This document shows positions 40,091 through 57,319 of a stretch of 64,000 bases of DNA, piece after piece; the first letter of the stretch is position 1, and each line of letters starts with the position of its first letter. A program made the translations under genes and the position numbers. The notes below the pieces were generated by a model, which was not told where the DNA came from, made no database searches, and saw only the letters and a program-made list of their open reading frames with translations. Source of the stretch: a virus; the IMG/VR virus record IMGVR_UViG_3300048914_000231, positions 1-64,000 of that record. The stretch is one strand, 5' to 3'.

Positions 40091-40492
40091 TTACTCGTCC
40101 GAGAGCTGGTTGATAAAGATGGATTGCGTACCAAGCGCTGCGACAGCCTGCGTCTCGTACGGCTGGTAATACGGTGCGCCGCTTGCCTTGCGTACCTTGA
40201 TCCTGAGGTTGTTGCGGGCGCTGCCGGACAGGTACACCGGCACCAGCATCGACACCACGACGTCCGTTGTCGTGCCCGAGACCGCCATTTCACCGGCGCC
40301 GTTTTCTACGTCGTAGGTTGATCCGACCACCACGTTGGTCAGGACCAGGGTCATCGACCCGACCGGATCGGTGGCCAGCAGCTGGCGTTCGATGACGTGG
40401 CCGAAATTGACATTCATCCTGCCGTTATCGGACGGGAGCTCCATCGTTCCGCCGCCGGTCCCGCGCATATTGATAAACATGGCGTTTGACAT
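40091..40492 (-). CDS. Putative virion accessory protein (Ig-like)
   Basis: 133 aa, coupled to upstream gene. Confidence 0.6.
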   Translation of the reverse strand: MSNAMFINMRGTGGGTMELPSDNGRMNVNFGHVIERQLLATDPVGSMTLVLTNVVVGSTYDVENGAGEMAVSGTTTDVVVSMLVPVYLSGSARNNLRIKVRKASGAPYYQPYETQAVAALGTQSIFINQLSDE

Positions 40493-42480
40493 CAGACCAC
40501 CTTCAGTTCCGGATCGATGAACGTACCCAGCGTGGCATTGGCCACCGAGGCGTGCAGCCTGATGTAGATCGACACTTCGCAGCCGTTGGCCATGTCCGGG
40601 CAGAACAGGCTGATCTGCTTCTTGGCGAACGTCTGACCGCTGTAGGACACGGCACCGCCAGCTTCACTCGACCAGACGGTCGTGGTGTCCGGGGTGAGGG
40701 CGGTATTGCCCGTGACGTCCAGCGAATCGACATAACGGATACCGCCCGTGCTGTCGAGGTAGGTCGCCATGAAGCTGATGTCGGCCATCGTCCACGACAG
40801 GGTTGATTCCACCGCAAAATTCAGCGTGACCGTACGGTCACCGGTGGCCAGCGTGTTCACCTTGTTGATGGTGGGGAGCTCGAAAGGCGAGGCCCGGCTC
40901 AGCATGAGGTTGTACGTGGCGGGGATCGCGTAAATGACCCATGGCGTCACGCCATCCAGCAGGCGGGCCGATGCGGTCGGGTAACCCTTGGCCGAATTCC
41001 ATTCGCAAAAGCCGTTGCGGCGGTCGATCAGAAAATCGCGATAACCGTACTTCGATTCGGCCGTATAGCTGTCGGCTGCCATCGTCGTATTACCGGCGCC
41101 ACCCAGGGCCACGTTGGGTCCGCGATCCTTGATGGCGCCGAAATCGCAATTACGGAACGACACGTCGCCGCCCGAGGAGATGTTACCGCTTGTCATCAGG
41201 CGGCAGGTGCTGATGAAGCCGATGAACTTGCAGTCCGTGTAACGTGCCAACACCGGATTGCCGCCACTGGAAGGGGCAAGAATCGGGCTGATCGCATTGG
41301 TGCAGTCGTTGACGACGAATTCGTGCGCTTCCAGGCTGTAGTTACACGATCCGTTAATGGACGAGGTGACAAAGCCACCCATGCTGTTGTTGTCTTTTGC
41401 CCATACCTGGCGACAGCCGATCATGCGGGTGCGAACCTGGAGGGAGCCCGAGGTTGCCAGCTTGAGGGCGTTGATTGCCGTCGAGGTCTGGGAGTTGCCA
41501 GGGGCATCCATCAAAAGATTTTCCCATGTCATTGGGGTATTACCGATGGCGATGACAAATCCGGCAAGGCTGGTGGATGTGGCGGATGCTTCCATGACCA
41601 GATTGCGCTGGCTGGAACTGTAGCGTTTGGACTTGATGTGGCAGAAAGTGGTGCCCAGCCCCTGGAAAGTGATGTTGCTATTGCTGGTCCAGGTACAGGC
41701 GATTTTGAAAACCGGACTGCTGCCGTCGGCGGGCCAGGTTGTGCCATCATCGATTTCAAAGAGGACCGGCTGCGTGGCCGAACCCATGGCGGCGAACGTG
41801 ATGGTGGTGTTGCTGTTGGTGGCGAACTGAAGCGTCTTGCTGGCGCGGACCCTGATGCGGTCGCCCAGATCCATCACGCCGGCGATGGGCTTGTTGGTGC
41901 CCCAGCAGCCGTACTGGCCAATACTCCAGTTGGATTTGCCAAACGTGGCCAGGTGGTTCACGAGGTAGCCCCATGCGCCACCGGCACCGCCGGAAAACTG
42001 CGCATTGAGCTGGCTGCCACCGGTGAGGCCAGTAGAGGTCACGGCAAAGAACGACGTGCCGTTGAAGGCTGCCGACCCTGCGCGCGTCTGGATGTTCAGC
42101 GTGGCGCCGCTGGAAGTCGCATACAGGATGTCCTGCAGTTTGCAGGCGGTCCAGCCCAGCAACGGGTTGGATGCCCCGATTACCGTGATCAGGTTGGTAT
42201 TCGCCGTCTGAATGATGGCAGCGGCCAGGTTGGCCGCAAGGGTTGAGCCGCTGCCCGCGTTGAACTGGTTGGCGCCGGCGCCGGAAGCCACGCAGGTCAG
42301 CTGGGCGCCGGCGATCGTGACGGTATTGCCAGCGGCAGCCGTGTAACCGGTCAGGTCGATGGAGCAGGTGGCGATGGTCGCCGCGCCGCTGGAGGTGCCG
42401 TCACCATCCTGGCACACGCCGGCGCCAGGTGTAGCGCTCCAGGCCGCATACAGGCCGTGATCGAGATATTTAGTAGCCAT
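40492..42480 (-). CDS. Putative tailspike/fibre-like structural protein
   Basis: 662 aa, S/T/G/N-rich, beta-helix-like C-terminal half. Confidence 0.6.
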   Translation of the reverse strand: MATKYLDHGLYAAWSATPGAGVCQDGDGTSSGAATIATCSIDLTGYTAAAGNTVTIAGAQLTCVASGAGANQFNAGSGSTLAANLAAAIIQTANTNLITVIGASNPLLGWTACKLQDILYATSSGATLNIQTRAGSAAFNGTSFFAVTSTGLTGGSQLNAQFSGGAGGAWGYLVNHLATFGKSNWSIGQYGCWGTNKPIAGVMDLGDRIRVRASKTLQFATNSNTTITFAAMGSATQPVLFEIDDGTTWPADGSSPVFKIACTWTSNSNITFQGLGTTFCHIKSKRYSSSQRNLVMEASATSTSLAGFVIAIGNTPMTWENLLMDAPGNSQTSTAINALKLATSGSLQVRTRMIGCRQVWAKDNNSMGGFVTSSINGSCNYSLEAHEFVVNDCTNAISPILAPSSGGNPVLARYTDCKFIGFISTCRLMTSGNISSGGDVSFRNCDFGAIKDRGPNVALGGAGNTTMAADSYTAESKYGYRDFLIDRRNGFCEWNSAKGYPTASARLLDGVTPWVIYAIPATYNLMLSRASPFELPTINKVNTLATGDRTVTLNFAVESTLSWTMADISFMATYLDSTGGIRYVDSLDVTGNTALTPDTTTVWSSEAGGAVSYSGQTFAKKQISLFCPDMANGCEVSIYIRLHASVANATLGTFIDPELKVV

Positions 42481-42916
42481 TGTTGATTGCCGCTCCGTAG
42501 TTGACCATCAGGGCGACCTGTTCCATGTGTGCCGCTGGGGTTTCGAGAATGCCCGCCTTCAGTTCGGGCGTGCACAGTCCTTTGGAAATCAGCAGGTCGA
42601 TCGCACTGGCCACGTCGGCCCGGCGCAGGTCGACCCACTTCCTGGATTGCACATCACGGACCACGGCCACCACCAGTGGATCGGTGGAGGCCAGAATCCC
42701 GATTTTCCTGGTGTCGAAGCGATCAAAGAATGGCCCGATGTCCATCAGCCACTTGGTTGCCAGGTCTCCCGGCTGCGGCAGTGTCGGATTCAGCTGGTCC
42801 TGCGCGACATGGTCATACTGGTCGAGCGGATAGAGTTCGGTATTGGACACATGCAGGGCGCCATAGGCATACACGTCCCTGCCGGTGGCTTTGTCGAAAA
42901 CAAGGTAGGTGGTCAT
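42470..42916 (-). CDS. Hypothetical protein, possibly fibre assembly
   Basis: Probable start MTTYLVF. Confidence 0.6.
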   Translation of the reverse strand: MTTYLVFDKATGRDVYAYGALHVSNTELYPLDQYDHVAQDQLNPTLPQPGDLATKWLMDIGPFFDRFDTRKIGILASTDPLVVAVVRDVQSRKWVDLRRADVASAIDLLISKGLCTPELKAGILETPAAHMEQVALMVNYGAAINNGY

Positions 42917-42918
42917 GC

Positions 42919-43302
42919 TTACTCGTAGGTATAGGTGACACGGTCGGTCCAGGCGTACGCGAACGCACCGCCGCCGACCCATGTGGTTACGACGTCGACG
43001 GCGCCGATAATGGTTTTGCTGATGCGCCAGACCGGGCTGGCGTCGTCGCTGCCCGACGCGGCCCAGCCCTTGTAGACCGAGACGTCACCGGACATGTCGA
43101 CGCGGCGCGCATACACGGTGTCGGCTGCCGGGGGACCGGGCGGGCCCTGCGTGCCCACTTCGATGATGTCGACGTCGACGTTCTCGACCACCAGTGTGGC
43201 ACTCTCTACCGTGTCGGTAATCGTGTCTGCGCCCGTGCCTTCCACCAGTACCGACGTCTCGTTTTGCACTTCGAGAAGGATGATTTGCGGCTCCGGCATC
43301 AC
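42919..43302 (-). CDS. Hypothetical virion protein with short GPPGPP motif
   Basis: 127 aa. Confidence 0.6.
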   Translation of the reverse strand: MMPEPQIILLEVQNETSVLVEGTGADTITDTVESATLVVENVDVDIIEVGTQGPPGPPAADTVYARRVDMSGDVSVYKGWAASGSDDASPVWRISKTIIGAVDVVTTWVGGGAFAYAWTDRVTYTYE

Positions 43303-43655
43303 GCTGCCTTTCTGGTGACGGCCGGCGACAGCTTGACGGCGCCTTCGATCAGACGGATCGCGGATTCGTCACCCACGTACAGGTACATGTCGTAGACGGC
43401 CGACTGGAACGTCAGCGCGGCGGTCTGCGCCGGCGTGAGCTTCAGCTGGATGGTGCCGGCCTTGCCGCCCAGCGTGATGCCGCCGTTTTCAGTCGACATT
43501 TCCACCAGGACCGTGCCGCCAACCTTGTCGCGCACCTGCAAAAGCGCGGTGTAGCCGGTCAGGTCGACCGCGCGCTTGTTCTTGTCACGCCACACAAGAC
43601 GCTTCGAATACTCGGCGCCTTGTTCGAACGTAAGATTGAGTTTCAAAGCTGACAT
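43299..43655 (-). CDS. BppU-like Ig-fold virion protein
   Basis: EQGA..VDLTGYTALLQVR..GTIQLKLTPAQT..YD..IEG..SPAVTR. Confidence 0.7.
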   Translation of the reverse strand: MSALKLNLTFEQGAEYSKRLVWRDKNKRAVDLTGYTALLQVRDKVGGTVLVEMSTENGGITLGGKAGTIQLKLTPAQTAALTFQSAVYDMYLYVGDESAIRLIEGAVKLSPAVTRKAA

Positions 43656-43688
43656 CGGACTGACCCTTATAGGAATCGCCCGATTATA

Positions 43689-43702
43689 TGTCAGTGCTGA
43701 CT
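43689..43702. promoter_or_regulatory. Palindrome variant abutting TATAAT
   Basis: TGTCAGTGCTGACT; -10 at 43683-43688. Confidence 0.8.
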
Positions 43703-43707
43703 TAGTT

Positions 43708-44247
43708 TCAAGGACGCACTTGTAGCCGAGGCGGGCCAAGTTCCTCGACCAGTTCGCCTGGCGAGAGCATGCGGTTGTGATCCAGCCAGGCCGGCGGCAC
43801 ATTCATGTTCATGCTTTTCATGTACAGGGCCGCGATTTCGTAGATGGACACGCTGCCACCCGAGCACACCACGATCTTGCGCCAGTGGATGAAGGTTTTC
43901 AGGCCCAGAAAGCAGCGCAACCCGATCACAAAGAAGGCCAGAAAGCCATAATTGATCGGATTGGCCAGCCAGTCGAAGACGGCGCGCTCGATGCAGGTGC
44001 GGTCGTCGGCGCCGGCCGGCGGGCTGCACACGTCGAAGGACTTGAACTGCGACAGCGGATGCAGCGCGTTACGGCCCGAGTTCAGGTCGGCCATGAAAAG
44101 ACGATTTGCGCACCAGACGGCCACGCCGGTATGCGTGTAAGGCTTGCGGGTAAAGAATATCGTCAGCCTGCCCAGCCAGTTGTGCACGTCGCGCACGCCG
44201 ATCAAATCGCCGGTCCGGATCTGGCTGCGCGCTTCATCGTATTTCAT
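43708..44247 (-). CDS. Permuted papain-like NlpC/P60 enzyme (YiiX/YaeF-like)
   Basis: TGDLI..YTHTGV..NYG..VCSG (His before Cys). Confidence 0.75.
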   Translation of the reverse strand: MKYDEARSQIRTGDLIGVRDVHNWLGRLTIFFTRKPYTHTGVAVWCANRLFMADLNSGRNALHPLSQFKSFDVCSPPAGADDRTCIERAVFDWLANPINYGFLAFFVIGLRCFLGLKTFIHWRKIVVCSGGSVSIYEIAALYMKSMNMNVPPAWLDHNRMLSPGELVEELGPPRLQVRP

Positions 44248-44256
44248 GGCTTGTCC

Positions 44257-44934
44257 TTATGCGTAGGCCCGAATGAAAAACTTCCAGTTGGCGTTCGTCA
44301 GCGTGACCGCGGCGCCGGTGGTCTTGTTCAGGGCGGCCAGCGGGGTCGCCGCCGAGGTCATGCGCACCGACAGGTTGGTGGCGTCCGACGTGAGCGACAT
44401 GTCGGTGAAGATGTCGGCCGGGATCATGTCGCCCACGGCATAGCCGAATTCGGCCGTCATGCACTTGAGGTAAGCCTGCACCAGCTTGGGCGCGGCGCCC
44501 AGGCCGTGCGCCAGCGTGTACAGGGCGGCCGGCGTAACCGTCTGGTCGGCGCTCTGAAAGTACTTGGTGATCGGCAGTACGCTGTTGTCAGCAGCCGTGA
44601 GCAGGGTCTGGATGCGGTTCATGGCGGCGGTGAATACCGCGGCCGTGCCGACGTCACCCTGTGCAATGGTCGGGATCATGCCCGGGTAGGTGGCGTCGAC
44701 CGCGAACACGCCGGTCGCGGTCGGGTTCGTGGCGCCCTGGTAGTTGCCCGTCAGCGTGACCGTGGTCAGGCCGGTGCCGGCGTTGTAGGTCGAATTGATG
44801 GAGACGAAATAGGGCACCAGTTCGGTATCCACCATGAAAATGGTATTCGCCTTGATGCGCGCCGTCTGGTCGCCCGCAACCGTCACGGTCTGGGAGCCAT
44901 TCGTCACCGAACAGGTTTTCTTGATTTGTGCCAT
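44257..44934 (-). CDS. Short tail-fibre-like protein
   Basis: CSVTNGSQTVT N-terminus; AHGLGAAPKLV..GYAVGD C-terminus. Confidence 0.65.
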   Translation of the reverse strand: MAQIKKTCSVTNGSQTVTVAGDQTARIKANTIFMVDTELVPYFVSINSTYNAGTGLTTVTLTGNYQGATNPTATGVFAVDATYPGMIPTIAQGDVGTAAVFTAAMNRIQTLLTAADNSVLPITKYFQSADQTVTPAALYTLAHGLGAAPKLVQAYLKCMTAEFGYAVGDMIPADIFTDMSLTSDATNLSVRMTSAATPLAALNKTTGAAVTLTNANWKFFIRAYA

Positions 44935-44971
44935 GTCATTACCCTGATAATGTGGCGGCCAGTCTATCATA

Positions 44972-45010: not shown

Positions 45011-45529
45011 TCACGCCGCCAGGATCGCCGACCTGTTCGTGACCAGAATCCACTGGCGGTGCGCCTCCCAGCTGTCCTCCCTGATCAGGCCGGCCTTGAG
45101 CAGGTTGGCGCGGTACAGCGCGGACATCACGAGACCCTCCTGGATCACCTGCGGGAAATCCGGATGTGAAGCCAGCGCCGCGGCATTCCACGCGTCGCGC
45201 GCCTGTTCCTCGCTGCAGTCCGGATTGGCCTTGACAAAATCGACCGCGGCGGCCTTGGCAGCGAAACGTTCGGTTTCCACCAGCTGCGTCACGGTCGACT
45301 TCGGTCCGAAGTCGGCGGTGATCCCGGCGCCGGAACCGGACTCCAGCGACGTGATCATGGCCTGCACTTCCGTCAGGGCGATCTGGGCGTCGCTGTTGAC
45401 GCTGTTGAGCTTTTGCACGGCCGACGCGGTGGCGTCGATCTGGCCCTGCAGATTGGATTTTTTGAGACGCGCCGCCTGCAGGCGCGCTTCGTTGGCGAGA
45501 GCTTCTTGAATTTCGGTGGTCGTGGCCAT
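45011..45529 (-). CDS. Coiled-coil protein following the fibre gene
   Basis: 172 aa, AAGGA SD. Confidence 0.7.
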   Translation of the reverse strand: MATTTEIQEALANEARLQAARLKKSNLQGQIDATASAVQKLNSVNSDAQIALTEVQAMITSLESGSGAGITADFGPKSTVTQLVETERFAAKAAAVDFVKANPDCSEEQARDAWNAAALASHPDFPQVIQEGLVMSALYRANLLKAGLIREDSWEAHRQWILVTNRSAILAA

Positions 45530-45544
45530 TGCGATTCCTTTCGG

Positions 45545-48500
45545 TTAGGGGAGCATCTTGAAGTTGTGGCAGAGCAGGCCGCCGGCAAAATAGGTGCCGG
45601 CGCCTTCAACGCGGAACGATACCACCTGACCTTGTCCGACGGCAAGGACGCTGGTCACGATCGATTCCTGCATGCCGAGAATGTGGTCGCCCGCGCGCAG
45701 GTTCTGCACGTGGACCCAGCCGCGGTCCTCGACGGCGAAGCGGTGGTTTTCGCTCCATTCGGTTGCGCGACCGTCCGCCAGCGTGACGCGGTAGCGCTGC
45801 GCCCAGATCGTGCAGCAGTCACGGATGATGCCGCCCCTGGCGATCGGCTCAAGCGTCGTGTCATTGACCGCCTGTACGACAGCGCCGTCGTGCAGGTCGC
45901 TGGCGTTGACCTCCCTGCCGCTGGCCAGGCGTACCTTGACCCACGGCGCCGGGCAGGCGCCACCACCGCCTGCGGACGTGCCGCCCGAGCCGCCGCCGGA
46001 TGAGCCCGACGTGCCGGTGATCGTCGTCGTCGACAGGTTGGCATTGACACTGGCGTTGCCGGCGAAGTCCTTGGTTGCTGACCAGCCGTACGAGTTGGCC
46101 AGGCGCACGCGCATGCAGCCGGTGAACAGGCCGTTGCTTTCCAGCTGGGTGCTGATGGTGCTGAGCGAGCCCGATCCGCTGAAGCGCCAGCCCCACGACC
46201 ACGAGCCCTGCACGATGCCACTGTCGCCGTCGTAGGTGCGCGACGGACACGGCCAGTAGAACTCGGTGAACGGGAACGTCGACGAGGTCGACTGAAACAG
46301 CTGGACGTGAATTTGCTGCATCGCGTCGAGGTTGTCGGTATAGGTGCTGTACGAGGTCGGCACCAGCTTGAAGCTGTGGTAAATCTGCTGGAAGTTGGAG
46401 TTGATCACCTGCGACGAGATAAACGAAATCGTCAGGCGGTTGATGTCCGGCGCACCGCCGCGCGTGGTGGCGTCATTGTTGCCGCGCCAGATCACCCGGC
46501 CATTGGCCTGGTTGCCGTCGATTGCCTGCACCAGGCGGAACCAGTAGTCGGAAAACGTCACGCTGCCGACCTGGAACGAGTTGTTGGCCACCTTCAGCGC
46601 CGTACCGGTCGAGGCCAGCTTGGCGCCCGCGGTCGGGTTGCCGGAACCGTCCTCGGCGTAGTTGGTGGTGCGCAGATCGGAAATCATCGCCGACTGGATT
46701 GCCGCGGACCGGATATAGGTGGAGGCATTGGCCGTGGTGATCACCGAGTCGCACCATGGCGTGACCTTGTTGCCCAGCTCCACCTTGATATTGGCAATCA
46801 CGATGTTGCCGCCGCCGGCGGCCGTCGTGAACATGCGCAGGCGGCACAGCGGCGCATTGGCGTTGGCCAGCGCCGTCTCCGTGAAGGAGTAGCGGGTCAT
46901 TGTTGTGGTAAGCGCAACCGAAATGCCGGTGCTGTCGTAATCGATGCTGTTGACGACGTCCACGTTCAGAATACGGCCGGCGGTGGTGCAGTAGGCGTCA
47001 AAACTAACGGTGTATTGAGATCCCCAGGGAATCCCCAGCGCCTGCGATTCGGCGCCGCTATAGCTCGAATCCGCGGTGGTGGCGATCCACACATACTGCC
47101 CGTCACCGAATCGCACGTCGCCGTTGCGGTTGCCGGTGGCAGTGTTGTACATCGTCATGCCGGTCGGGGCCGGGCACAGGTTCGGGTTGGTCGAAGTCTG
47201 CTGGGCCAGGCTGCTGCCGGAGGCCAGCAGCACAGTGCCATCGTCGGCCAGAATCGTGGCCGAACGCATGCTGATGGCACCAGAGGTGCCATCAATGGTG
47301 ATGGTATTCACGCCGCTGCTGTTGTAGGCGACGACGCCGTTCTTGTTCATCATCATGCCGTAGCCGCCAGTGCGTACGCCAGTCGAACTGTTGTACGTCA
47401 ACGTGCCCGCCGTGAAGCCAGCGCCGCCAGTCAGCACGTTGACCGTATTGTTGCGCATGCGCTGGGCCAGGCCGGTGGTGGGGTCATTGACGGCGCTATA
47501 CGCCTGCACACCATTCCAGTTGCTCGACAGGGGGCCAAAGCGGATGCTCTTCATCACGGCGCCAACACTGAAGAACGAACTGTCGAAGAACAGCACCTGG
47601 TTCGCCGTGGTGGAAGCGGCATCCAGGGATGTATAAAATACAACCCCGTTTTTCAGATACTTGACACTGGAGCCATCATAAACCACGGCGAAGACGTCAT
47701 TTGCCGCCCAGGTTCCACGACTGCCGCCAATCTGAGTCCCAGATTCAATGACCTTAATGGAGATTGGGTTCGTAGTGGCATCAAGGCAGAGAGACCAGTC
47801 GATCCCAGTAAAATCGACGCCCGTCAGGTCACCGGAACTATTAAGGCCGAAGGATATCGTGCTCGTGATGTCGGCTGCAACAATGGAAGCGTACGCGCCT
47901 CCCGTAAAACTGTCCCGGCTGTACACCTGTCCGTCCCAACCCGACCCGGTGCCCGTACCTTTGGTGGCGGTATTGCCGCTGACGGTAACCGAACCGGTCG
48001 CCACCAGGGCAATGTCTGCGGTCGCATTGTCGACGGGCTTGCCGGTGCCGGTGATTGCCGACCACACGTTGACGTTTGCAACCGGGATGCCGTTGATCGT
48101 GCCGGTAATGTTGCCAGTGAATGCCACACTTGTACTTGGCTGGTAGGGGTTCTCGGCCGCGAGGGACGGAACCGCGATTGTTGACATGATGACGCCCGCC
48201 GCATTGACGTCCTTGTCGACCGAGCGGTACGCGCGCACGCCGAACTTTGTGAACAGGGTGGCGCCGACGCCATACATGATGAACGCACGTTTCGCCGCAG
48301 GCAGGGTGAACACGGTTTCGGCTGCCGGCGTGGTGCCGAAGGTGTATGCGGCATTCGTAGATGCCTGATACACGTAGACCAGGAAGCCGTCGATGTCTCC
48401 CTCATTGCCCGACCATGCCCATTCGAACGAAATGTCGGCCGAGCCATCGGTGCGGATCGTGTGATCGACCGCCGTGCCATCGGCCAGGATGGTTGGCGCG

Positions 48501-51181
48501 GCAATGGCAGTGCTGTTGCGGTCGTTGGAGGCGTTGAAATTGGTGGTCGCAGTGGCCACTGTGGAAGCCGCCACACCGGCCACAAAGGTTCCGGCCGGAG
48601 CGCCCACGGTAGCGCCGTCCTCGGGTTTGCCGGTGCCGCCGATGTTCGCCCAGTTGTTCGACGTCAGCGGGCCGAAGCGGACGCCATTCAGCTTGCCGCC
48701 CGAAGTGGCGAACGAGCTGTCGAAGAACAGTACCTGTCCGGCCACCTTCGATGCGGCAGATACCGAAGTGTAAAAGACAACTCCATTTTTCAGGTAGTCC
48801 ACGCCGGAGCCGTCGTACGCTACCGCAAACACATCGCCGCCCACGTACGAGCCGTAGGTGCCGCCAACCTGCGCGCCACTCTCATAGACGAGGATTGCAC
48901 CGTCGCTGCGCAGATAGATCGCGTAATCCAGCGTGGTGTAGCTGGTGTCGGTCAGGTCGCCTGCCGAATTCAGGCCGAACATCAGCGAGTGCGTGGCGTC
49001 CTGCGGCGATGCCGATGCGTAGGCGCCGCCAGTGAAAGAATCCCTGCTGTAGGCACCGGCATCCCATGCTTCCGCAATCGACACGTTGTCGACGCCATAG
49101 GTGCCAGCCGCCGCGCGGAGGAACATGAGGTATGAAGTCGTGGTTGTCGCGGTGAACGTGAAGTTGCGACCAGTGCCAGGTTGCGTCAGGGCACTTGTGG
49201 GGTTGTACAGGTCGTTAACGCCGTTGGCCGTACCCACGACAACAATGACTGGCCCGGTCAGGATGTCGAACGTGACAGAGTAGGTCCGCCCCGGCACAGT
49301 GGCGATCGACTGGCTCACGGATGCAGTACCGTTGGAGCCGTTCGGTGTCAGCTGCGCAATGCCCGAAGACCACGCCACCGAACCAGTGGTAGTCCAACCA
49401 TTCAAATTGGACGCGAACGTGCCGTTTGTGATGGAGGGCGCGGTCGCCGCCGGCTTGCTGGCGAGATTGCCGGCGACCGCGCCCACGCCGGTGGCCACCA
49501 GCGTGACATCGGCCACCGCGTTGATTGCACCCGATACCGTGTCATCCACCACGATGCTTTGCGTGTCGATCTGGCTGGCAGTCAGCTTGCCCACCGTGAT
49601 CTGGTTGGCATTCAGCGTGCCCGTGTACACGTAGCCGGACCAGATTTGCGCTGCAGTAATCGTGTTCGCGGCGATTTCGTTGGCCGTAATCGCGCCGGCG
49701 GCGATCTGTCCCGCTGTGATCGTGCGCGCGGCGATCTGGGTGGCCGTGATGGCGCCATCCACGATCAGTTCGCCCTTGTTGCGGCGCATGACCTTGAGAT
49801 TGCGATAGCGCCAGGTCGACAACACGCCATTGGTGACCGGGTGCTGGATCCAGACGCGCGCATAGGCGGCGCCAGCGGGCGCCACACTCTTTGCGCTGCC
49901 AGTCAGCCAGGTGGAGGTGCCGCCCGCAACCGTGGCCGGGCCATTCCACGTCTGACCCGCAATGGTCGGGTAGCCCGTGCTGTAGCTCAGGCCCACGTTG
50001 GCCTGGCTGGTGTCGCCCGACATCCATTTGCCATCGAAACTGATCCAGAACTCGTCACCGGGCACCACCGGGAACCAGTTGTCCAGGTACATATCGCGCG
50101 AGCCGCCGGCCACCTCGATGGCGGGCGCGCTGGTGTCCGTGACCGAAGCTACGCTGCCATATGTGACGGAGAACCAGCCCTCGGCGTTGAGCGTGCCGTT
50201 CGGGTTGCGCACGAGGTTTTCAAAGTCGCCAACGGCGATCTTGCCGGCCGTGACCGCACCTGCTGCCAGTTCGGTGGCGCCGATGGCGCCGGCGGCAATC
50301 TGCCCTGCCGTGATGGTGTCGGCGGCGATCTGCGCGGCAGTGATCGTGTTGGCGGCAATCTGGCCCGCCGTGATGGTATTGGCGGCGATCTCGTTGCCGG
50401 TGATGGTGCCCGCCAGAATCTTGGCGGCCGTGACGGCACCGGCGCCGATCTTGGCCGTGGTGATCGAGTTGTCCGTGATCTGCGTGCTGGTGATCTGGCC
50501 AACCAGCTTGGTGACGTCGATCGAGGCAATCTGCGCGCTGGTCAGGGCGCCAACCAGTTTGGACGAGTCCACGGAGGCGATCTGGCTGCTGGTAAGCGTA
50601 CCTGTGATGTCGATCGCCGGCGTGGCCGAAGTCCAGGCTGATCCGGTGTAGCGGTACAGCTTGCTGTCGGTCGACAGCATCACCACCTTTGGCCCCGTGT
50701 AGCCGGACACGGCCGGCAGGGCCGACACGATCGACACCGGCTGGATGCCGCTGGCAAAGGATGCCGTGGATACCACACCGGAAGCCAGGTTGCCCGTCAC
50801 CGGATCGATCGCTGCCACATTCAGGTTCGACGCCTGCACGGCGCCGGCGGCGATGTCCAGGTTGGTCGCCAGCAGCGACTTGGCCACGGCCGAGTTGGAC
50901 CAGGTTCCATCCGTGCGGCCGTAGATGTTGATCGCGCGCACCCAGTAATAGCGGTTCGTCACCGGATTGACGCTGGTGGACGAGTCCGTGAAGGTGTTCG
51001 TCGTCACGGTGCCGATCTTGGTCGCGCTCGCCACGCTGTTGGTCGAGTTGCTCCAGATTTCGGCGCCGGCGTAGGTCGTGTCGGTAGGCATGTCCCACAA
51101 CAGGACCACGGCGCGCAGGCTTGGCGTGGCCGTCAGGTTGTTCAGGGTCGGTGCCGGTACGGGACGGATATTAAGCAGCAT
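45545..51181 (-). CDS. Large modular tail fibre/adhesin with C-terminal Hint domain
   Basis: FN3-like N-terminus, ITAGQIAANT repeats, three CBM-like modules, a duplicated domain, Gly-rich linker, then C..SENH..CHN Hint. Confidence 0.85.
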   Translation of the reverse strand: MLLNIRPVPAPTLNNLTATPSLRAVVLLWDMPTDTTYAGAEIWSNSTNSVASATKIGTVTTNTFTDSSTSVNPVTNRYYWVRAINIYGRTDGTWSNSAVAKSLLATNLDIAAGAVQASNLNVAAIDPVTGNLASGVVSTASFASGIQPVSIVSALPAVSGYTGPKVVMLSTDSKLYRYTGSAWTSATPAIDITGTLTSSQIASVDSSKLVGALTSAQIASIDVTKLVGQITSTQITDNSITTAKIGAGAVTAAKILAGTITGNEIAANTITAGQIAANTITAAQIAADTITAGQIAAGAIGATELAAGAVTAGKIAVGDFENLVRNPNGTLNAEGWFSVTYGSVASVTDTSAPAIEVAGGSRDMYLDNWFPVVPGDEFWISFDGKWMSGDTSQANVGLSYSTGYPTIAGQTWNGPATVAGGTSTWLTGSAKSVAPAGAAYARVWIQHPVTNGVLSTWRYRNLKVMRRNKGELIVDGAITATQIAARTITAGQIAAGAITANEIAANTITAAQIWSGYVYTGTLNANQITVGKLTASQIDTQSIVVDDTVSGAINAVADVTLVATGVGAVAGNLASKPAATAPSITNGTFASNLNGWTTTGSVAWSSGIAQLTPNGSNGTASVSQSIATVPGRTYSVTFDILTGPVIVVVGTANGVNDLYNPTSALTQPGTGRNFTFTATTTTSYLMFLRAAAGTYGVDNVSIAEAWDAGAYSRDSFTGGAYASASPQDATHSLMFGLNSAGDLTDTSYTTLDYAIYLRSDGAILVYESGAQVGGTYGSYVGGDVFAVAYDGSGVDYLKNGVVFYTSVSAASKVAGQVLFFDSSFATSGGKLNGVRFGPLTSNNWANIGGTGKPEDGATVGAPAGTFVAGVAASTVATATTNFNASNDRNSTAIAAPTILADGTAVDHTIRTDGSADISFEWAWSGNEGDIDGFLVYVYQASTNAAYTFGTTPAAETVFTLPAAKRAFIMYGVGATLFTKFGVRAYRSVDKDVNAAGVIMSTIAVPSLAAENPYQPSTSVAFTGNITGTINGIPVANVNVWSAITGTGKPVDNATADIALVATGSVTVSGNTATKGTGTGSGWDGQVYSRDSFTGGAYASIVAADITSTISFGLNSSGDLTGVDFTGIDWSLCLDATTNPISIKVIESGTQIGGSRGTWAANDVFAVVYDGSSVKYLKNGVVFYTSLDAASTTANQVLFFDSSFFSVGAVMKSIRFGPLSSNWNGVQAYSAVNDPTTGLAQRMRNNTVNVLTGGAGFTAGTLTYNSSTGVRTGGYGMMMNKNGVVAYNSSGVNTITIDGTSGAISMRSATILADDGTVLLASGSSLAQQTSTNPNLCPAPTGMTMYNTATGNRNGDVRFGDGQYVWIATTADSSYSGAESQALGIPWGSQYTVSFDAYCTTAGRILNVDVVNSIDYDSTGISVALTTTMTRYSFTETALANANAPLCRLRMFTTAAGGGNIVIANIKVELGNKVTPWCDSVITTANASTYIRSAAIQSAMISDLRTTNYAEDGSGNPTAGAKLASTGTALKVANNSFQVGSVTFSDYWFRLVQAIDGNQANGRVIWRGNNDATTRGGAPDINRLTISFISSQVINSNFQQIYHSFKLVPTSYSTYTDNLDAMQQIHVQLFQSTSSTFPFTEFYWPCPSRTYDGDSGIVQGSWSWGWRFSGSGSLSTISTQLESNGLFTGCMRVRLANSYGWSATKDFAGNASVNANLSTTTITGTSGSSGGGSGGTSAGGGGACPAPWVKVRLASGREVNASDLHDGAVVQAVNDTTLEPIARGGIIRDCCTIWAQRYRVTLADGRATEWSENHRFAVEDRGWVHVQNLRAGDHILGMQESIVTSVLAVGQGQVVSFRVEGAGTYFAGGLLCHNFKMLP

Positions 51182-51635
51182 TGAAGTTCACCACGAAGTC
51201 AAGGTTGGTGCTGTATTTGATGGTGGCGGTGTAGGCGCCCGCCACCGTCGTCGTAAGGGTCAGCGAGCCGTCGCTGATGGTGCCGTTGGCGATCGGGTTG
51301 ATGCCAACGCCAATCGGCACATCGATCTGGTACGTCGCGCCATTCGGAATCGGGCTGATCGTGATCGAATCGGTGCCGTTGGCAACGATCGAAGTCTTGT
51401 TGGCCGCGATCTGGGTGCCGCTGACGGCAATTGGCGGGCGCGCCTTGGTTGGCAGGTCGCCGCCGATCGGGATCGCATTCACGTCCACCACCTGCGTGAC
51501 CGGGTCGGAACCGGTGATGATCACGTTGGTGCCGGGCGAACTGCCCTGCAGGCGCGCGGACGCCTCCGTCATCGCGGTGCCGGTGCGCAGAATGGCGCCG
51601 GTGGTGGTGTCGTACACCGTGTACTGGATTGTCAT
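51171..51635 (-). CDS. Tail accessory protein
   Basis: YTVYDTTTGAILRTG N-terminus; lies between tip and fibre genes. Confidence 0.65.
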   Translation of the reverse strand: MTIQYTVYDTTTGAILRTGTAMTEASARLQGSSPGTNVIITGSDPVTQVVDVNAIPIGGDLPTKARPPIAVSGTQIAANKTSIVANGTDSITISPIPNGATYQIDVPIGVGINPIANGTISDGSLTLTTTVAGAYTATIKYSTNLDFVVNFNAA

Positions 51636-54600
51636 TTCTTAACGCCCATCATGAAGATTTCGTTGTAGCCAAGGATGACGTCGGGGTGCGCCGACCACTC
51701 CACCTCGACCTTGGTCGTGCCGGCCGGCAGCTTGACTGACGCCGAGCACACCGGAGCATCGTTGGCGACGCGGCCCATGATTCCGCGCACCACGGTGCCG
51801 GCAACCTTGATGCGGATCGACCAGTAGCGGCTGTTGTTGGCAAAGCCCTGCGCGCTGGTGACCAGGATGTAGACCATGCCGTCCTGCGGCATTGCCATGT
51901 AGCCCTCGTTGACGACGGTCCAGGTGCCTTCACCCACGCCCTTGCGCTGGCGGTCCGGCGCGGTGACAACGATCGGCACCGTGACGGCTTCGCCAGCCAG
52001 CTTCAGCGTGTTGATCTGGGCATCGCCAATCATGGCCGACGAGATCGAGGCGTCGCCGATCAGGGCGTTGGACAGAATCACGCGCGGCACGCCGTTCACG
52101 GTGCCGACAGTGAATGGCTGCACACCCGGGTAGCTCGGCATGATCAGGCCGAACTTGTCGGCGTAGATCACGAACTCGGACGTGCCCACGCCGGCCAGGC
52201 TGGAGGTCGAAGACAGGCCAAAGCCGGCGATGTAGCCGTTGTTGTCGATCTTGAGGCTGTACTGGCCGGACAGGCCGCTGATCGTATTGGCGTTGGTCGA
52301 GAACGCCTGCTCCATCGTCACGCCGCCAACGTTGTTCAGACGGCTGGTGATCTGGTAAATCGCCTGGGCCGCGGCGGACGTCGACGTGGCTGACACGTTG
52401 TTGAGCTGCGTGATCGCCGCGGTGGCGGCCGGCAGGCCGGTGGTGGCGTCGTTGACCTGTGCCTTGAGCTGGTACAGCGTCCTGGCGTTGGTCGAGGCCG
52501 ACGTGGCCGACACGTCTTCCAGCGCGGTGATCTTGGCCGTCGCCGCCGGCAGGCCGGTGACCGGGTCGTTGAGAACGTCGCTGACGGCCTTCACGCGCGC
52601 GTTGACGCTGCCGGCCACGGTGTCCGCGGCGTCGATCAGGTCGATCCTGGTCTTGAGCGCCGGCAGCAGCTTGGAGTCCGCGATGACGCCATCGGCGATT
52701 GCCGCCACGTTCAGGTTGGTGGTGGTGAACGTCTGCATCGACGACACGTTCAGTTCCGTGCGGCCGAAGGCGTCGTAGGCCGCCAGTTTGTAGTAGTAGA
52801 CGGCGTTGAACATCAGGCCGGGCACCGCGAACGACGTGTCCGGGCCGCTGTAGACCAGATAGGTGTCGCTGGGCGTGCCATTCAGGTTCGAAGCGTTCTG
52901 CGACATCCACATGCACACGCCGGCGAAATCCGGATCGTCCGTATGCTGGTAGCTGACGCTGACCGAATCGAACGACGGCAGCGCGCTGAAGCTGGTCAGG
53001 CCCGGCGACGGGTTGAAGGCGTCGAGCAGGGCCGGCGTGCCGAGATTGTTGAACGTGTCGCGCTGGCGAACCTGAAACACCAGATGGCGGGTCAGGCCGT
53101 CCGAGAAGTTCTTGTCGTAGATGTAGACGTAGCTGTTGTCCGTCGTGTACTCGGTGCGGCGCAGTGTCGTGCCGTCGGCTTCGAACACCTTGATTTCGTA
53201 ATCCTTGAAATGCGGATCGAGCGCACCGGCATCAGCGCCGTTCGGTTCGCTGCCGAACTCGTAGGAGTGCGTGACCGAGTTGTAGCGCCAGTTGATCTTG
53301 CAGTCACGGCCGGACCAGACATAGTCCACGCCGGTAGGCATGCCGACATCAATACCCTGCGTCTCGCCAATCACGGTATAGGTCGCGGTTGGCGCGTCCT
53401 CGTACTGGCTGCGCTTGTCGAACAGGTCGAACGCCACCACGCGCACGCCCAGGACGTCACCGCGCGCGGCGCTGATGACGACGCTGGTGACGCTCTTTAC
53501 GGTATTGATCTTTTCTTCCGTGCGTCCGTTTCTGGTGACGTACACGTCGGCGCCGCCGTACATGCCCACGGTCGACGCCGTCCAGCTGGCCACCACGCTG
53601 GTGACGACATTGTCACCGGCAATGTAGGTCTCTTCGTAGACGGCCAGGTTGGCAACCGGTCCAATCGGAGTGTTCGGGTTGGTCGGTACGGCCACGTTGC
53701 TGCCGTAGCGGCTGTAGTCATACACTTCGGGGCGGTATTCGATGGCGGTAATGTCGCGCCGGTATTCGGAGTCGCCCGTGATCGACTTGATGCGAAACGC
53801 CTTCTTGACGCGCGCGGCCTCGCCGAACATCCATTTCGTGAACTGGGCCGGTGCGGCGCTCATGGGCGTTTGCAGCGTGACGGTATCGCTGGTGCCAGGC
53901 GTGACCACGACCGGGAATTCCTCGATCACGTCGGTATCCCACAGCACATAGGTCTGGCCCGGAACGACCCCGGCGACGCTTGACAGAATGACGCCATTGC
54001 TGAAGGTGCCGTCGACGCCGATATCCTTGCCGCCCACGACAATGCGCCTGACAGTCAGGCCGGGCGTGAAGCCGGTCAGCGTCACGCTGTTGCCGGTTAC
54101 GCTGACCACGCTGCCGCTGGCGCGCTGCACGCTGTCACGCATCGCCAGCAGATTGTAGGTCTTGCCCGAGGCCATGGTCACGGGGCGGTCAAGCTGCATG
54201 ACCGACGTGGTGGAGCCCGCGTTGAAGCGCCCGGCCTGCGCCCAGTTGGTCAGGTCGGTCTGTACATAGATCAGGTCGCCCACGCGGCAGGCGATCGCCT
54301 CCAGCGGTGCCCCGAACGTGATGGTCTTGAGGATGTAGCGGTTCAGGTTCAGCTGGAACTGCGCTTCCTTGTAGGCGCGGTCATAATCGACCACGCCATA
54401 CAGCGTGACGGCGCTGTTGCGCTGCGGTGCGCCTGAAGTGAATGCCACCGGATCATAGACCTTGATGGTGCGCTGCTTGTACCTGTCGGTCCTGTCGAAA
54501 AAGGTGACGTCGATCTCGTTGGCGCGGTCGGCGGTGCCCAGCCAGGTTTCCTTGTACGAGCCCTGGATCATGTTCGCGACCGAGAACATCATCACCGGCG

Positions 54601-56317: not shown

Positions 56318-56678
56318 ACTCGAAATATCCTACGATGCGGTGCTGCCAGTCCGCCAGGCGGACAATCGTCACGCCACCGGAGGGTTCCCAGGCGTGAATC
56401 ATGTGGTGTGGACCGAATACATAGCCCACGTGCGCGGCATACCTGCCGACCCGGATGAATGCCACGGCGCCGTGACGTGGTTCGATCTGGCGCCACTGGG
56501 GCAGACTGGCCGTCATCATGGCCATGATGGTCGGCTGGTCGGTCGCGCTGCCGAAGTCCGGCAGCACCACGCCGTCGCGGCGCGCGCATTCCATCACCAG
56601 GCCATAGCAGTCCAGCGCGTCGGGTCCGCGCGCGCCGTATTCGAACGGCACGCCGATCAGGTCGGCGAAATCAGCCAT
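56289..56678 (-). CDS. NlpC/P60 tail protein (no JAB domain)
   Basis: GVPFEYGARG..DCYGL..HVG..MIHA. Confidence 0.85.
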   Translation of the reverse strand: MADFADLIGVPFEYGARGPDALDCYGLVMECARRDGVVLPDFGSATDQPTIMAMMTASLPQWRQIEPRHGAVAFIRVGRYAAHVGYVFGPHHMIHAWEPSGGVTIVRLADWQHRIVGYFEYVGNEEAPR

Positions 56679-57303
56679 AGCGGGTGTCGCGCGAATTGAT
56701 GCCCGGGAAAGCGCCGAAATGAATGACGTTCTGATGCGCGCGGCAGCCATTGGCGCCTTCAAGCGACAGGTCGCACGACGACATCGAGCCGGTATAGCCA
56801 CATTCCTGACTCTTGTAGCGCCACTGGCAGTAATCCTTGGTCTGGCGCCGGCGCGGGAAGGTCTTGGTAATGTTGTTCTCGGCGCCCAGCGTGAAGGCGC
56901 AGACGTAGTTGGCCGTCTCGGCGGCCGTGACCTGGAAGTACTCGATCACCTCGGGGCTTTGCGTCAGGTTGCCGGCGTTGACGACGGTGACCGTGACGGC
57001 GAACCCTACGCCGCCGCCATAATCCTGCATGCGCTGCTGTACCGTCAGCGTGTAATCCTTGATCGACAGGTTGATCTCGGACTGCGTGCCGGCCTCGGAC
57101 TTGAGCGTGATGTCGAATGCGGCCGGCGAGTACGTAAAACCGTTGTACGTGACCGGGTCCGGGTTGCGGGCCAGATGCAGCGTCTCGACGGTGACCAGCG
57201 TCGCCGGATCGATCACGGCGACGTCCAGAAGAATGATCCAGGGTACTTCGGAAGAAATCCGGTTCTTCTCGATGATGCTGGCGACGGAAAGGGAGGTGGT
57301 CAT
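56671..57303 (-). CDS. Minor tail protein L-like
   Basis: C-terminal CQWRY..CGY..C..C..FGAFPG. Confidence 0.8.
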   Translation of the reverse strand: MTTSLSVASIIEKNRISSEVPWIILLDVAVIDPATLVTVETLHLARNPDPVTYNGFTYSPAAFDITLKSEAGTQSEINLSIKDYTLTVQQRMQDYGGGVGFAVTVTVVNAGNLTQSPEVIEYFQVTAAETANYVCAFTLGAENNITKTFPRRRQTKDYCQWRYKSQECGYTGSMSSCDLSLEGANGCRAHQNVIHFGAFPGINSRDTRYG

Positions 57304-57319
57304 GCGGCGATTATACATC

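What the first reader, a model, noticed from the sequence alone, without database searches (positions are those of the whole stretch)
45545..45990. Tail fibre capped by a self-processing Hint (intein-like) domain lacking a +1 nucleophile
Seen: after a Gly/Ser linker (SGSSGGGSGGTSAGGGGA), the 1878-aa fibre ends in a 131-aa domain (45955 to 45563). It starts with Cys, has a block-B-like SENH, a block-F-like VVSFRVEGAGTYFAGG and a terminal His-Asn, followed only by FKMLP. Known: Cys1 and the block-B His drive the N-S acyl shift in Hint domains; the +1 Phe rules out canonical splicing, as in A-type BIL domains. Inference: the domain either acts as a self-removing folding chaperone (analogous to S74 intramolecular chaperones) or leaves a C-terminal thioester on the fibre. 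Such a thioester could ligate to a partner protein from the downstream cluster, a small molecule or the host surface, which would be a covalent virion-tailoring or attachment system.
Basis: partly seen in the sequence, partly recalled or inferred. Interest (0 to 1): 0.85.

Follow-up and report, generated by a model that had tools for sequence, protein, structure and literature searches.

The report
Self-processing Hint cap on phage fibre
The 1878-residue tail fibre of this uncultured 114-kb phage really does end in an intact intein-like (Hint) domain that most likely cuts itself out. It belongs to a widespread "glycine linker – Hint – lysine tail" end-module for which I found no paper.

Summary
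ORF 45545-51181 (minus strand) ends in TITG, a 19-residue Gly/Ser linker, a 131-residue domain (Cys1 ... SENH ... His-Asn) and FKMLP-stop.

An AlphaFold model (pLDDT 89) superposes on mini-inteins, Tetrahymena BIL2, the C. thermocellum BIL and Hedgehog (Foldseek E 1e-10, TM 0.73-0.81).

The domain is one of at least 110 cluster representatives in which the same Hint sits at the extreme C-terminus:
- Cys1 was found wherever the start could be placed.
- The block-B His and the His-Asn are invariant in a 30-sequence sample.
- Gly-Gly lies at -3/-2 in about 85%.
- The +1 residue is free.
- Lys is at +2 in 104/110.
- A tail is always present (2-14 residues).

The Hint co-inherits with a roughly 245-residue beta-sandwich tip domain (51/53 homologues). 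An unannotated 172-residue gene directly follows in 17/17 tip-Hint loci and is absent from the flanks held for 75 Hint-less J-type loci.

Best reading: a type-A-BIL-like self-excising cap. The conserved His-Asn plus Lys suggests the thioester is resolved internally, by transfer of the tail. Ligation to an outside partner is not excluded.

No paper or curated family describes the module. This scan has already found it on other DNA at least ten times.

The parts
45545..51181 (-). Tail fibre gene (1878 aa, P0001). It is the gene after next downstream of the lambda-J-like gene, with one 154-aa ORF between.
   Evidence: PHROG virion-structural hits and Pfam DUF7359. Neighbours are the tape measure, gpL-like and gpJ-like genes.
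46013..46741 (-). Distal 'tip' domain (residues 1481-1723), a beta-sandwich ending in the strand TITG. It is the N-terminal part of the shared cassette.
   Evidence: The shared block begins at residue 1481 in 13 of 14 related fibres, whose N-terminal parts are unrelated. AF2 pLDDT is 75, with a core above 85. The only fold match is a generic FN3-like sandwich, Z up to 8.1. 51 of 53 homologues carry the Hint.
45956..46012 (-). Flexible Gly/Ser linker TSGSSGGGSGGTSAGGGGA. Gly-Gly-Ala are the -3, -2 and -1 residues of the scissile bond.
   Evidence: pLDDT below 50 in the model. Family-wide, Gly at -2 in 84/98 and at -3 in 82/98; median linker about 10 residues.
45563..45955 (-). Hint domain, 131 aa, from Cys1 (45953-45955) to Asn131 (45563-45565).
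   Evidence: AF2 pLDDT 89.4. Foldseek to Ssp/Npu DnaB mini-inteins, gp41-1, BIL2, Cth BIL and Hedgehog. Weak hits to four Pfam Hint-clan models. TerL inteins of Corynebacterium phages at E 1e-7.
45743..45754 (-). Block-B motif SENH (the TxxH equivalent). The His is invariant.
   Evidence: H93 is invariant in A1, 30 sequences. H71 is invariant in A2. Coordinates checked.
45563..45568 (-). Block-G His-Asn, the residues of Asn cyclisation and C-terminal cleavage.
   Evidence: H152 and N153 are invariant in A1. They align with the terminal HN of the gp41-1 intein.
45548..45562 (-). Five-residue C-flank FKMLP, with the conserved Lys at +2 (45557-45559).
   Evidence: Lys at +2 in 104/110 terminal representatives and Lys within +1..+3 in 108/110, against a 2-3% Lys background. 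Tail length is 2-14 and never 0.
45011..45529 (-). Conserved 172-aa neighbour gene (P0151): coiled coil, G-x-G-P-G linker, helical domain. Its ATG lies 15 nt after the fibre stop, behind an AAAGGA ribosome-binding site.
   Evidence: Found directly downstream in 13/13 close loci and 4/4 distant loci, and in 0/75 Hint-less J-type loci. 145 homologues, none annotated. No Pfam, PHROG, NCBIfam or Atlas hit.

Best explanation
The last 136 residues are a catalytically intact, type-A-BIL-like Hint domain that works as a self-excising C-terminal cap on the fibre's distal module.

Inferred sequence of events:
1. Cys1743, assisted by the block-B His1813, converts the Ala1742-Cys1743 peptide bond at the end of the Gly linker into a thioester.
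2. Asn1873, assisted by His1872, cyclises and cuts the Hint from the FKMLP tail.
3. An amine of that tail resolves the thioester. This is either the freed alpha-amine of Phe+1, as proposed for type-A BILs, or the epsilon-amine of the conserved Lys+2, as in Tetrahymena BIL2. If no amine attacks, water or a thiol does.

Net result: the 14.5-kDa Hint leaves. The mature fibre ends in its Gly-rich tail, probably re-capped by the pentapeptide.

While attached, the Hint would act as a transient cap on the tip domain, as a folding, assembly or masking device. The co-inherited 172-aa gene sits where a tip-specific assembly factor would sit.

Shown here: the fold, the residue conservation, the architecture and the co-inheritance. 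Inferred: all chemistry and the biological role.
For: Fold:
- AF2 pLDDT 89.4.
- Foldseek E 1e-10 to 2e-7 and TM 0.7-0.8 to mini-inteins, BIL2 (6y75) and the Cth BIL (2lwy).

Catalytic set:
- The block-B His and the His-Asn are invariant, and Cys1 is kept in at least 90%, of a 30-sequence alignment whose members are 28-76% identical to the window protein.
- In the wider set, Cys1 was located in all 98 terminal members whose domain start could be placed.

The C-junction is under selection:
- Lys at +2 in 104/110, Lys or Arg within +1..+3 in 110/110.
- The tail is never absent, while the +1 residue takes 15 different residue types.

The N-junction is stereotyped: Gly-Gly at -3/-2 in about 85%.

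Stable architecture: a 61-member clade of terminal caps (support 0.99), and only 6 terminal/internal switches among 127 domains.

Not a free-riding element: the tip domain and the Hint co-occur in 51/53 homologues and diverge in step.

Chemistry precedent:
- Type-A BILs form the N-terminal thioester, cut at the Asn, and the freed amine ligates the flanks, with cleavage products dominating (PMC4031507; PMC7664689).
- BIL2 makes a Lys-epsilon isopeptide to the N-flank's C-terminus (PMC8616854).
Against: No biochemical or proteomic datum exists for any member. I could not measure model geometry (Lys+2 to Cys1 distance), because coordinates are not exposed.

The His-Asn plus Lys could be conserved for structural reasons, or for a trans reaction; BIL2 also keeps its Asn while conjugating in trans.

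A long flexible Gly linker is odd for a folding chaperone that must template the tip. A reason why a fibre needs a removable cap remains conjecture.

The block-F His of the family consensus (HTY) is Gly in this protein (AGTY), which might slow catalysis.
Confidence: 0.6

Rival explanations
1. Trans-ligation device. The Hint keeps the fibre's Gly-Gly-x end as a latent thioester. That thioester is captured by an outside nucleophile: a lysine or N-terminus of a virion or partner protein (for example the 172-aa neighbour), a small molecule, or an amine on the host envelope. The result is a covalent adduct, Hedgehog- or BIL2-style.
For: - The Hint thioester chemistry is intact.
- The long flexible linker ending in Gly-Gly resembles a ubiquitin-like tail.
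- BIL2 conjugates its N-flank to lysines of several substrates (PMC8616854).
- A strictly co-inherited neighbour gene exists, and Lys92 is kept in 93% of its family.
Against: - gpI-like proteins with the same Hint cap have no such neighbour, so the Hint does not need it.
- The neighbour's only Cys and its His122 are not conserved family-wide.
- No sterol- or adduct-recognition region follows the Hint; only 2-14 residues do.
- The one residue under strong selection outside the Hint is its own tail lysine.
Confidence: 0.2
2. Retained structural knob. The Hint is not processed and simply forms the distal end of the fibre, for example as a binding domain.
For: The domain is compact and well folded. 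Nothing here shows cleavage directly.
Against: What is conserved is exactly the catalytic set (Cys1, block-B His, His-Asn), not a surface patch. The domain is tethered by a disordered Gly linker. It is shared by unrelated carriers (gpI-like, J-like, fibres), which is unlike a receptor-specific tip.
Confidence: 0.1
3. Evolutionary leftover or selfish element. It is either a degenerate mini-intein, or a pretoxin-HINT cassette whose toxin was lost, tolerated at the gene's 3' end and perhaps useful only as a conserved recombination handle for swapping fibre tips.
For: - Internal relatives reach the PT-HINT gathering score and are followed by other domains.
- The nearest sequence relatives in deposited phages are TerL inteins.
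- The tip-Hint-P0151 block is a mosaic cassette joined to unrelated shafts at residue 1481.
Against: - There is no presence/absence polymorphism: 51/53 tip homologues, down to 32% identity, keep it.
- There is no endonuclease.
- Purifying selection acts on the catalytic residues and on Lys+2 across a 61-member clade.
- G+C content matches the surroundings.
Confidence: 0.07

Closest known systems
Type-A bacterial intein-like (BIL) domains (Amitai 2003; Dassa 2004; C. thermocellum BIL, PDB 2LWY)
   Same: Hint fold, Cys1, block-B His and a C-terminal His-Asn. No +1 nucleophile. Carried by variable, non-housekeeping proteins. 2LWY is the best PDB sequence hit (E 0.012) and a structural match (TM 0.71-0.80).
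   Different: It sits at the extreme C-terminus with only a 2-14-residue flank. It has a stereotyped Gly-Gly N-flank behind a Gly/Ser linker, a CPAP start and a conserved Lys at +2. It is carried by phage tail-tip proteins. Sequence similarity to described BILs is marginal.
Pretoxin HINT (Pfam PF07591, polymorphic toxin systems)
   Same: Internal relatives in the same hit list pass the PT-HINT gathering score. 8 of 30 aligned members hit it at E<0.01.
   Different: The window's domain scores 12.3 bits against a 27.7-bit cut-off. No toxin or any other domain follows it.
BIL2 of the Tetrahymena thermophila BUBL1 polyubiquitin-like locus (PDB 6Y75, 6TMM)
   Same: Structural match (E 7e-9, TM 0.74-0.77). 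The N-flank ends in glycines. It has a His-Asn end and a lysine in the C-flank, and in BIL2 that lysine receives the N-flank as an isopeptide (PMC8616854).
   Different: 16-17% identity. BIL2 sits between two folded ubiquitin-like domains in a eukaryote. Here the C-flank is a bare pentapeptide, and no isopeptide has been shown.
Class-1 mini-inteins (Ssp/Npu DnaB, gp41-1; TerL inteins of Corynebacterium phages)
   Same: These are the best fold matches (E 1e-10, rmsd 2.0 Å). TerL inteins are about 30% identical over 126 residues. Blocks A, B, F and G are all present.
   Different: There is no +1 Cys/Ser/Thr requirement (Phe here; 15 residue types across the family). It is not inserted in a conserved host-protein site, and there is no real C-extein.
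Hedgehog/Hog autoprocessing domain (PDB 1AT0, 6TYY)
   Same: A Hint at the C-terminal end of a secreted or structural protein. The thioester is used to process or modify the N-terminal part. Structural match at E 4e-6.
   Different: Hog lacks the terminal Asn chemistry and needs a sterol/adduct-recognition region after the Hint. Here the His-Asn is invariant and only five residues follow.
Peptidase S74 intramolecular chaperone domains of phage fibres and tailspikes
   Same: A C-terminal, self-removing module on phage fibres. This is a functional analogy only.
   Different: Unrelated fold and chemistry: S74 uses a Ser-Lys dyad and works as a trimer. No Pfam hit here.

Membership tests
Hint (Hedgehog/intein) superfamily | Horseshoe-like all-beta Hint fold | tested here: met
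   AF2 pLDDT 89.4 and pTM 0.81. Foldseek gives 60 PDB matches at E<=0.001, and the listed ones are inteins, BIL or Hedgehog; the top is 1mi8 at E 1.3e-10, TM 0.73/0.81, rmsd 2.0 Å.
Hint (Hedgehog/intein) superfamily | Nucleophile at position 1 and a block-B TxxH histidine | tested here: met
   Cys1743 and SENH. The His is invariant and the Cys kept in at least 90% of A1.
Canonical (class 1) intein | Cys/Ser/Thr at +1 for trans-esterification | tested here: not met
   The +1 residue is Phe. Across 110 terminal relatives the counts include A20, L17, T16, V13, I10 and others, with S3 and C0.
Canonical (class 1) intein | Insertion inside a conserved host protein, with functional exteins on both sides | tested here: not met
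   Only FKMLP follows. Family tails are 2-14 residues.
Type-A BIL domain | C-terminal His-Asn retained and no +1 nucleophile (PMC4031507, PMC7765530) | tested here: met
Type-A BIL domain | Sequence membership in the A-type motif set of Amitai 2003 | tested here: inconclusive
   The best PDB sequence hit is 2LWY, but only at E 0.012. No A-type BIL profile is available. The nearest proxy, PT-HINT, is below cut-off for this protein.
Type-A BIL domain | Autocatalytic N- and C-cleavage or splicing shown in vitro | not testable with these tools
   This needs expression and mass spectrometry.
PT-HINT (PF07591) | Score at or above the Pfam gathering threshold | tested here: not met
   12.3 bits against 27.7. 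Internal relatives P0084, P0090, P0119 and P0063 do pass.
PT-HINT (PF07591) | Followed by a C-terminal toxin module | tested here: not met
   The stop codon comes five residues after the Asn.
Hedgehog Hog domain | Sterol/adduct-recognition region after the Hint | tested here: not met
   Only five residues follow the Hint.
Peptidase S74 intramolecular chaperone | S74 sequence or fold with a Ser-Lys dyad | tested here: not met
   Neither Pfam nor PHROG finds S74. The fold of the terminal domain is Hint.
BIL2-type isopeptide-forming BIL | A C-flank lysine that receives the N-flank carboxyl | tested here: inconclusive
   A conserved Lys+2 is present in 104/110 and the fold matches 6y75. The bond itself cannot be tested here.

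The most novel reading that the evidence does not exclude
The Gly-linker / Hint / x-Lys module is a built-in, ATP-independent ligase of phage tail tips. It activates the fibre's Gly-Gly-x carboxyl as a thioester and forms an isopeptide bond to a lysine. That lysine is its own +2 Lys, which would leave a branched pentapeptide cap, or a lysine or amine on a partner protein or the host envelope. This would be ubiquitin-like conjugation chemistry used for virion maturation or attachment.
Probability: 0.3. Interest if true: 0.8.

Novelty: new variant of a known kind. Interest (0 to 1): 0.62.

Why it matters
Phage fibres and tailspikes are known to mature through S74-type intramolecular chaperones or separate assembly chaperones. 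I found no report of thioester (Hint) chemistry at a fibre tip in six literature searches. No curated Pfam or NCBIfam model captures these caps at threshold.

The module is common: at least 110 clusters at 50% identity, on fibres, J-type central fibres and gpI-like proteins, including Myxococcus chromosomes. Many annotated 'tail fibre' sequences may therefore not correspond to the mature virion protein. That matters for receptor-binding-protein prediction and engineering.

If the conserved lysine is the acceptor, this would be a prokaryotic-virus counterpart of BIL2 isopeptide splicing. It would also be a compact natural self-cleaving or ligating tag behind a Gly linker.

One small construct and a mass spectrometer can settle the question.

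Tried and rejected
I used IMG/VR loci instead, and matching contig lengths.
- The search for related loci with alignments A1 and A2 failed because no stretch was conserved enough. Host assignment therefore remains open. The only leads are a gpJ similarity to Pseudomonas phage nickie, Nican01 and Rhizobium phage RHEph10 and an Oxalobacteraceae MAG homologue of P0151.
- Deposited phages (50,697 records) show no fibre with this cap by tblastn. The only matches are TerL inteins and one unannotated faecal-phage match.
- The tip domain gave no specific fold match: Foldseek found nothing at E<=0.001, VIA-wide gave a generic FN3-like sandwich at Z<=8.1, and the Atlas gave only sub-threshold leads to gpJ C-terminal receptor-binding domains.
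- P0151 has no family, Atlas or fold lead. I considered that its Cys105 and His122 make it a catalytic or acceptor partner, and rejected this because neither is conserved in 117 homologues.
- The Chiarini 2021 BIL2 paper is not held, so BIL2 chemistry is cited from the authors' CASP14 text.
- I could not measure distances in the AF2 model.
Full report
**Observation.** The window is the first 64 kb of a 114,062-bp IMG/VR virus record with direct terminal repeats. The minus-strand ORF 45545..51181 encodes 1878 residues. It lies in a lambda-type tail block: tape measure (57722-62275), gpL-like gene (56671-57318), a 1561-aa gpJ-like gene (51632-56317), a 154-aa ORF and then this fibre. A script confirmed all coordinates.

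**Is it a Hint domain?** Sequence methods alone are weak but all point the same way:
- four Hint-clan Pfam models score below threshold (Intein_splicing E 0.0025);
- the best PDB sequence hits are the C. thermocellum BIL domain 2LWY (E 0.012) and the gp41-1 intein, with the terminal His-Asn aligned;
- tblastn against 50,697 deposited phages finds only the TerL inteins of Corynebacterium phages (E 1e-7, about 30% identity).

An AlphaFold2 model built on a 30-sequence alignment is confident (pLDDT 89.4, pTM 0.81), with the Gly linker disordered. Foldseek places it on Ssp/Npu DnaB mini-inteins (E 1e-10, TM 0.73/0.81, rmsd 2.0 Å), gp41-1, Tetrahymena BIL2 (6y75), the Cth BIL (2lwy), RecA and DnaE inteins and Hedgehog. 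The fold claim is settled.

**Family.** A full HMMER pass over 1.84 billion cluster representatives gave 409 relatives at E<1e-3. Among the 148 best that I could parse, 110 carry the domain at the extreme C-terminus of proteins up to 2572 aa (median 836), and 38 carry it internally.

In the terminal set:
- Cys1 was located in all 98 members where the start could be placed, and 77 of those 98 begin CPAP;
- Gly occupies -2 in 84/98 and -3 in 82/98, behind a Gly/Ser linker with a median of about 10 residues;
- the block-B His and the His-Asn are invariant in the 30-sequence alignment;
- the +1 residue is unconstrained, with 15 residue types (T16, S3, C0);
- Lys sits at +2 in 104/110, and within +1..+3 in 108/110, against a 2-3% Lys background;
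- the tail is 2-14 residues (mode 5) and is never missing.

A FastTree of 127 domains puts 61 terminal caps in one clade (support 0.99) and needs only six terminal/internal switches. Internal relatives reach the Pfam PT-HINT gathering score and are followed by other domains. The window's domain does not reach it (12.3 against 27.7 bits). No NCBIfam model fits either.

**What it is attached to.** Fourteen IMG/VR loci carry close relatives, always at the end of ORFs with 728-2802-aa reading frames. Their fibres share only residues 1481-1878 with this one, and their N-terminal parts are unrelated. The mobile unit is therefore a cassette of tip domain, linker and Hint.

The tip (residues 1481-1723) models as a beta-sandwich with no specific structural relative. 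Of 53 proteins that share the tip at 32-85% identity, 51 end in the Hint cap. The two exceptions match only part of the tip. Tip and Hint identities fall in parallel. This argues against an independently mobile or dispensable element. Members include chromosomal Myxococcus and Corallococcus proteins that NCBI labels 'Hint domain-containing protein'.

**A third component.** The 172-aa gene at 45011-45529 starts 15 nt after the fibre stop, behind a ribosome-binding site.
- A homologue directly follows the fibre in 13/13 close loci that extend far enough.
- In more distant prophage-like loci, where the J-type protein itself ends in tip plus Hint, a homologue follows in 4/4. None is found in 75 J-type loci without the Hint.
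- At least 21 of its 145 homologues share contig length with tip-Hint fibres.

It has a coiled coil with an ANEAR motif, a GxGPG linker and a helical domain, and no annotation anywhere. Its single Cys and His122 are not conserved family-wide. The distant loci also carry a second Hint cap on a gpI-like protein (weak Lambda_tail_I hit), and that one has no such neighbour. The neighbour therefore goes with the tip domain, not with Hint chemistry. It most plausibly acts as a tip-specific assembly factor, which is the usual role of the gene that follows a fibre gene. The other downstream genes in the window are not conserved with the module.

**Mechanism.** Established knowledge:
- Type-A BILs keep the His-Asn, lack the +1 nucleophile, form the N-terminal thioester and cut at the Asn. 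The freed amine of the C-fragment can then ligate the flanks, although cleavage products dominate (PMC4031507; PMC7664689; PMC7765530).
- Tetrahymena BIL2 forms an isopeptide between a C-flank lysine and the N-flank's C-terminus (PMC8616854).

The pattern here is an invariant His-Asn, a tail that is always present, a near-universal Lys at +2 and a free +1. Neither simple N-cleavage nor a Hedgehog-type transfer obviously requires such a pattern, because Hedgehog does without the Asn. This pattern is what one would expect if the tail takes part in resolving the thioester.

My best reading, at 0.6, is a self-excising cap. Within it, tail transfer (alpha- or epsilon-amine) is somewhat more likely than plain hydrolysis. 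Rivals are capture by an outside nucleophile (0.2), an unprocessed structural knob (0.1) and a functionless leftover (0.07). All chemistry is inferred.

**Comparison and novelty.** It works like a type-A BIL or BIL2. It fails the membership tests for canonical inteins (+1 nucleophile, two exteins), PT-HINT (score, toxin), Hog (recognition region) and S74. Membership in type-A BIL is met on the defining residues but inconclusive on sequence.

Six literature searches found nothing on Hint or BIL domains at phage fibre ends (with checks). BFVD lists only unnamed or generically labelled 'Hint' proteins of uncultured phages besides true inteins.

This scan has already met the same glycine-Hint-lysine module on other DNA at least ten times, and follow-up agents reached similar readings.
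- the tight coupling to one tip domain;
- the conserved 172-aa neighbour and its absence behind gpI-type caps;
- the clade structure.

I class the finding as a new variant of a known kind.

Noticed in passing
window 45011-45529 (-): An unannotated 172-aa protein family (145 clusters): coiled coil with an ANEAR motif, a GxGPG linker, and a helical domain with conserved ER.A.K, W114, Y139, W154 and R158. It always sits directly behind tip-Hint fibres. No Pfam, PHROG, NCBIfam or Atlas match.
   Followed up: partly
L018:3197-4414, L019:3149-4435, L020:2894-4414, L021:3107-4426, L017:3188-4420: In distant prophage-like loci, a roughly 400-aa gpI-like tail-assembly protein just upstream of J also ends in the Gly-Hint-xK cap. 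Each of the four loci L018-L021 therefore carries two independent caps. L017 shows only this one.
   Followed up: partly
window 45545-51181 (-), residues about 701-855 and 1040-1221: The fibre has an internal duplication of a roughly 155-180-aa module (...YSRDSFTGGAYAS...GLNS...YLKNGVVFYTS...). The first copy is followed by Pfam DUF7359 at residues 881-1000. Both copies hit the same segment of related fibres.
   Followed up: no
window 51632-56317 (-): Besides central-fibre J, the 1561-aa gpJ-like protein also hits the PHROG tail-assembly family phrog_32 at residues 71-200. This may be a fusion of an I-type protein with J, or an over-long ORF call.
   Followed up: no
window 43299-43802 (-): A 167-aa ORF matches phrog_1084 and L-shaped tail-fibre assembly (phrog_3304, E 2e-9). 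It lies in a block of unannotated ORFs (40492-44970) that includes a 662-aa protein, so this may be a second fibre/chaperone set. The block is not conserved in the related loci.
   Followed up: no
whole record (114,062 bp, DTR): By its gpJ, the phage is only distantly related to isolates: the 112-kb Pseudomonas syringae phages nickie and Nican01 (33% identity) and the 115-kb Rhizobium phage RHEph10. A P0151 homologue in an Oxalobacteraceae MAG is the only host lead.
   Followed up: partly
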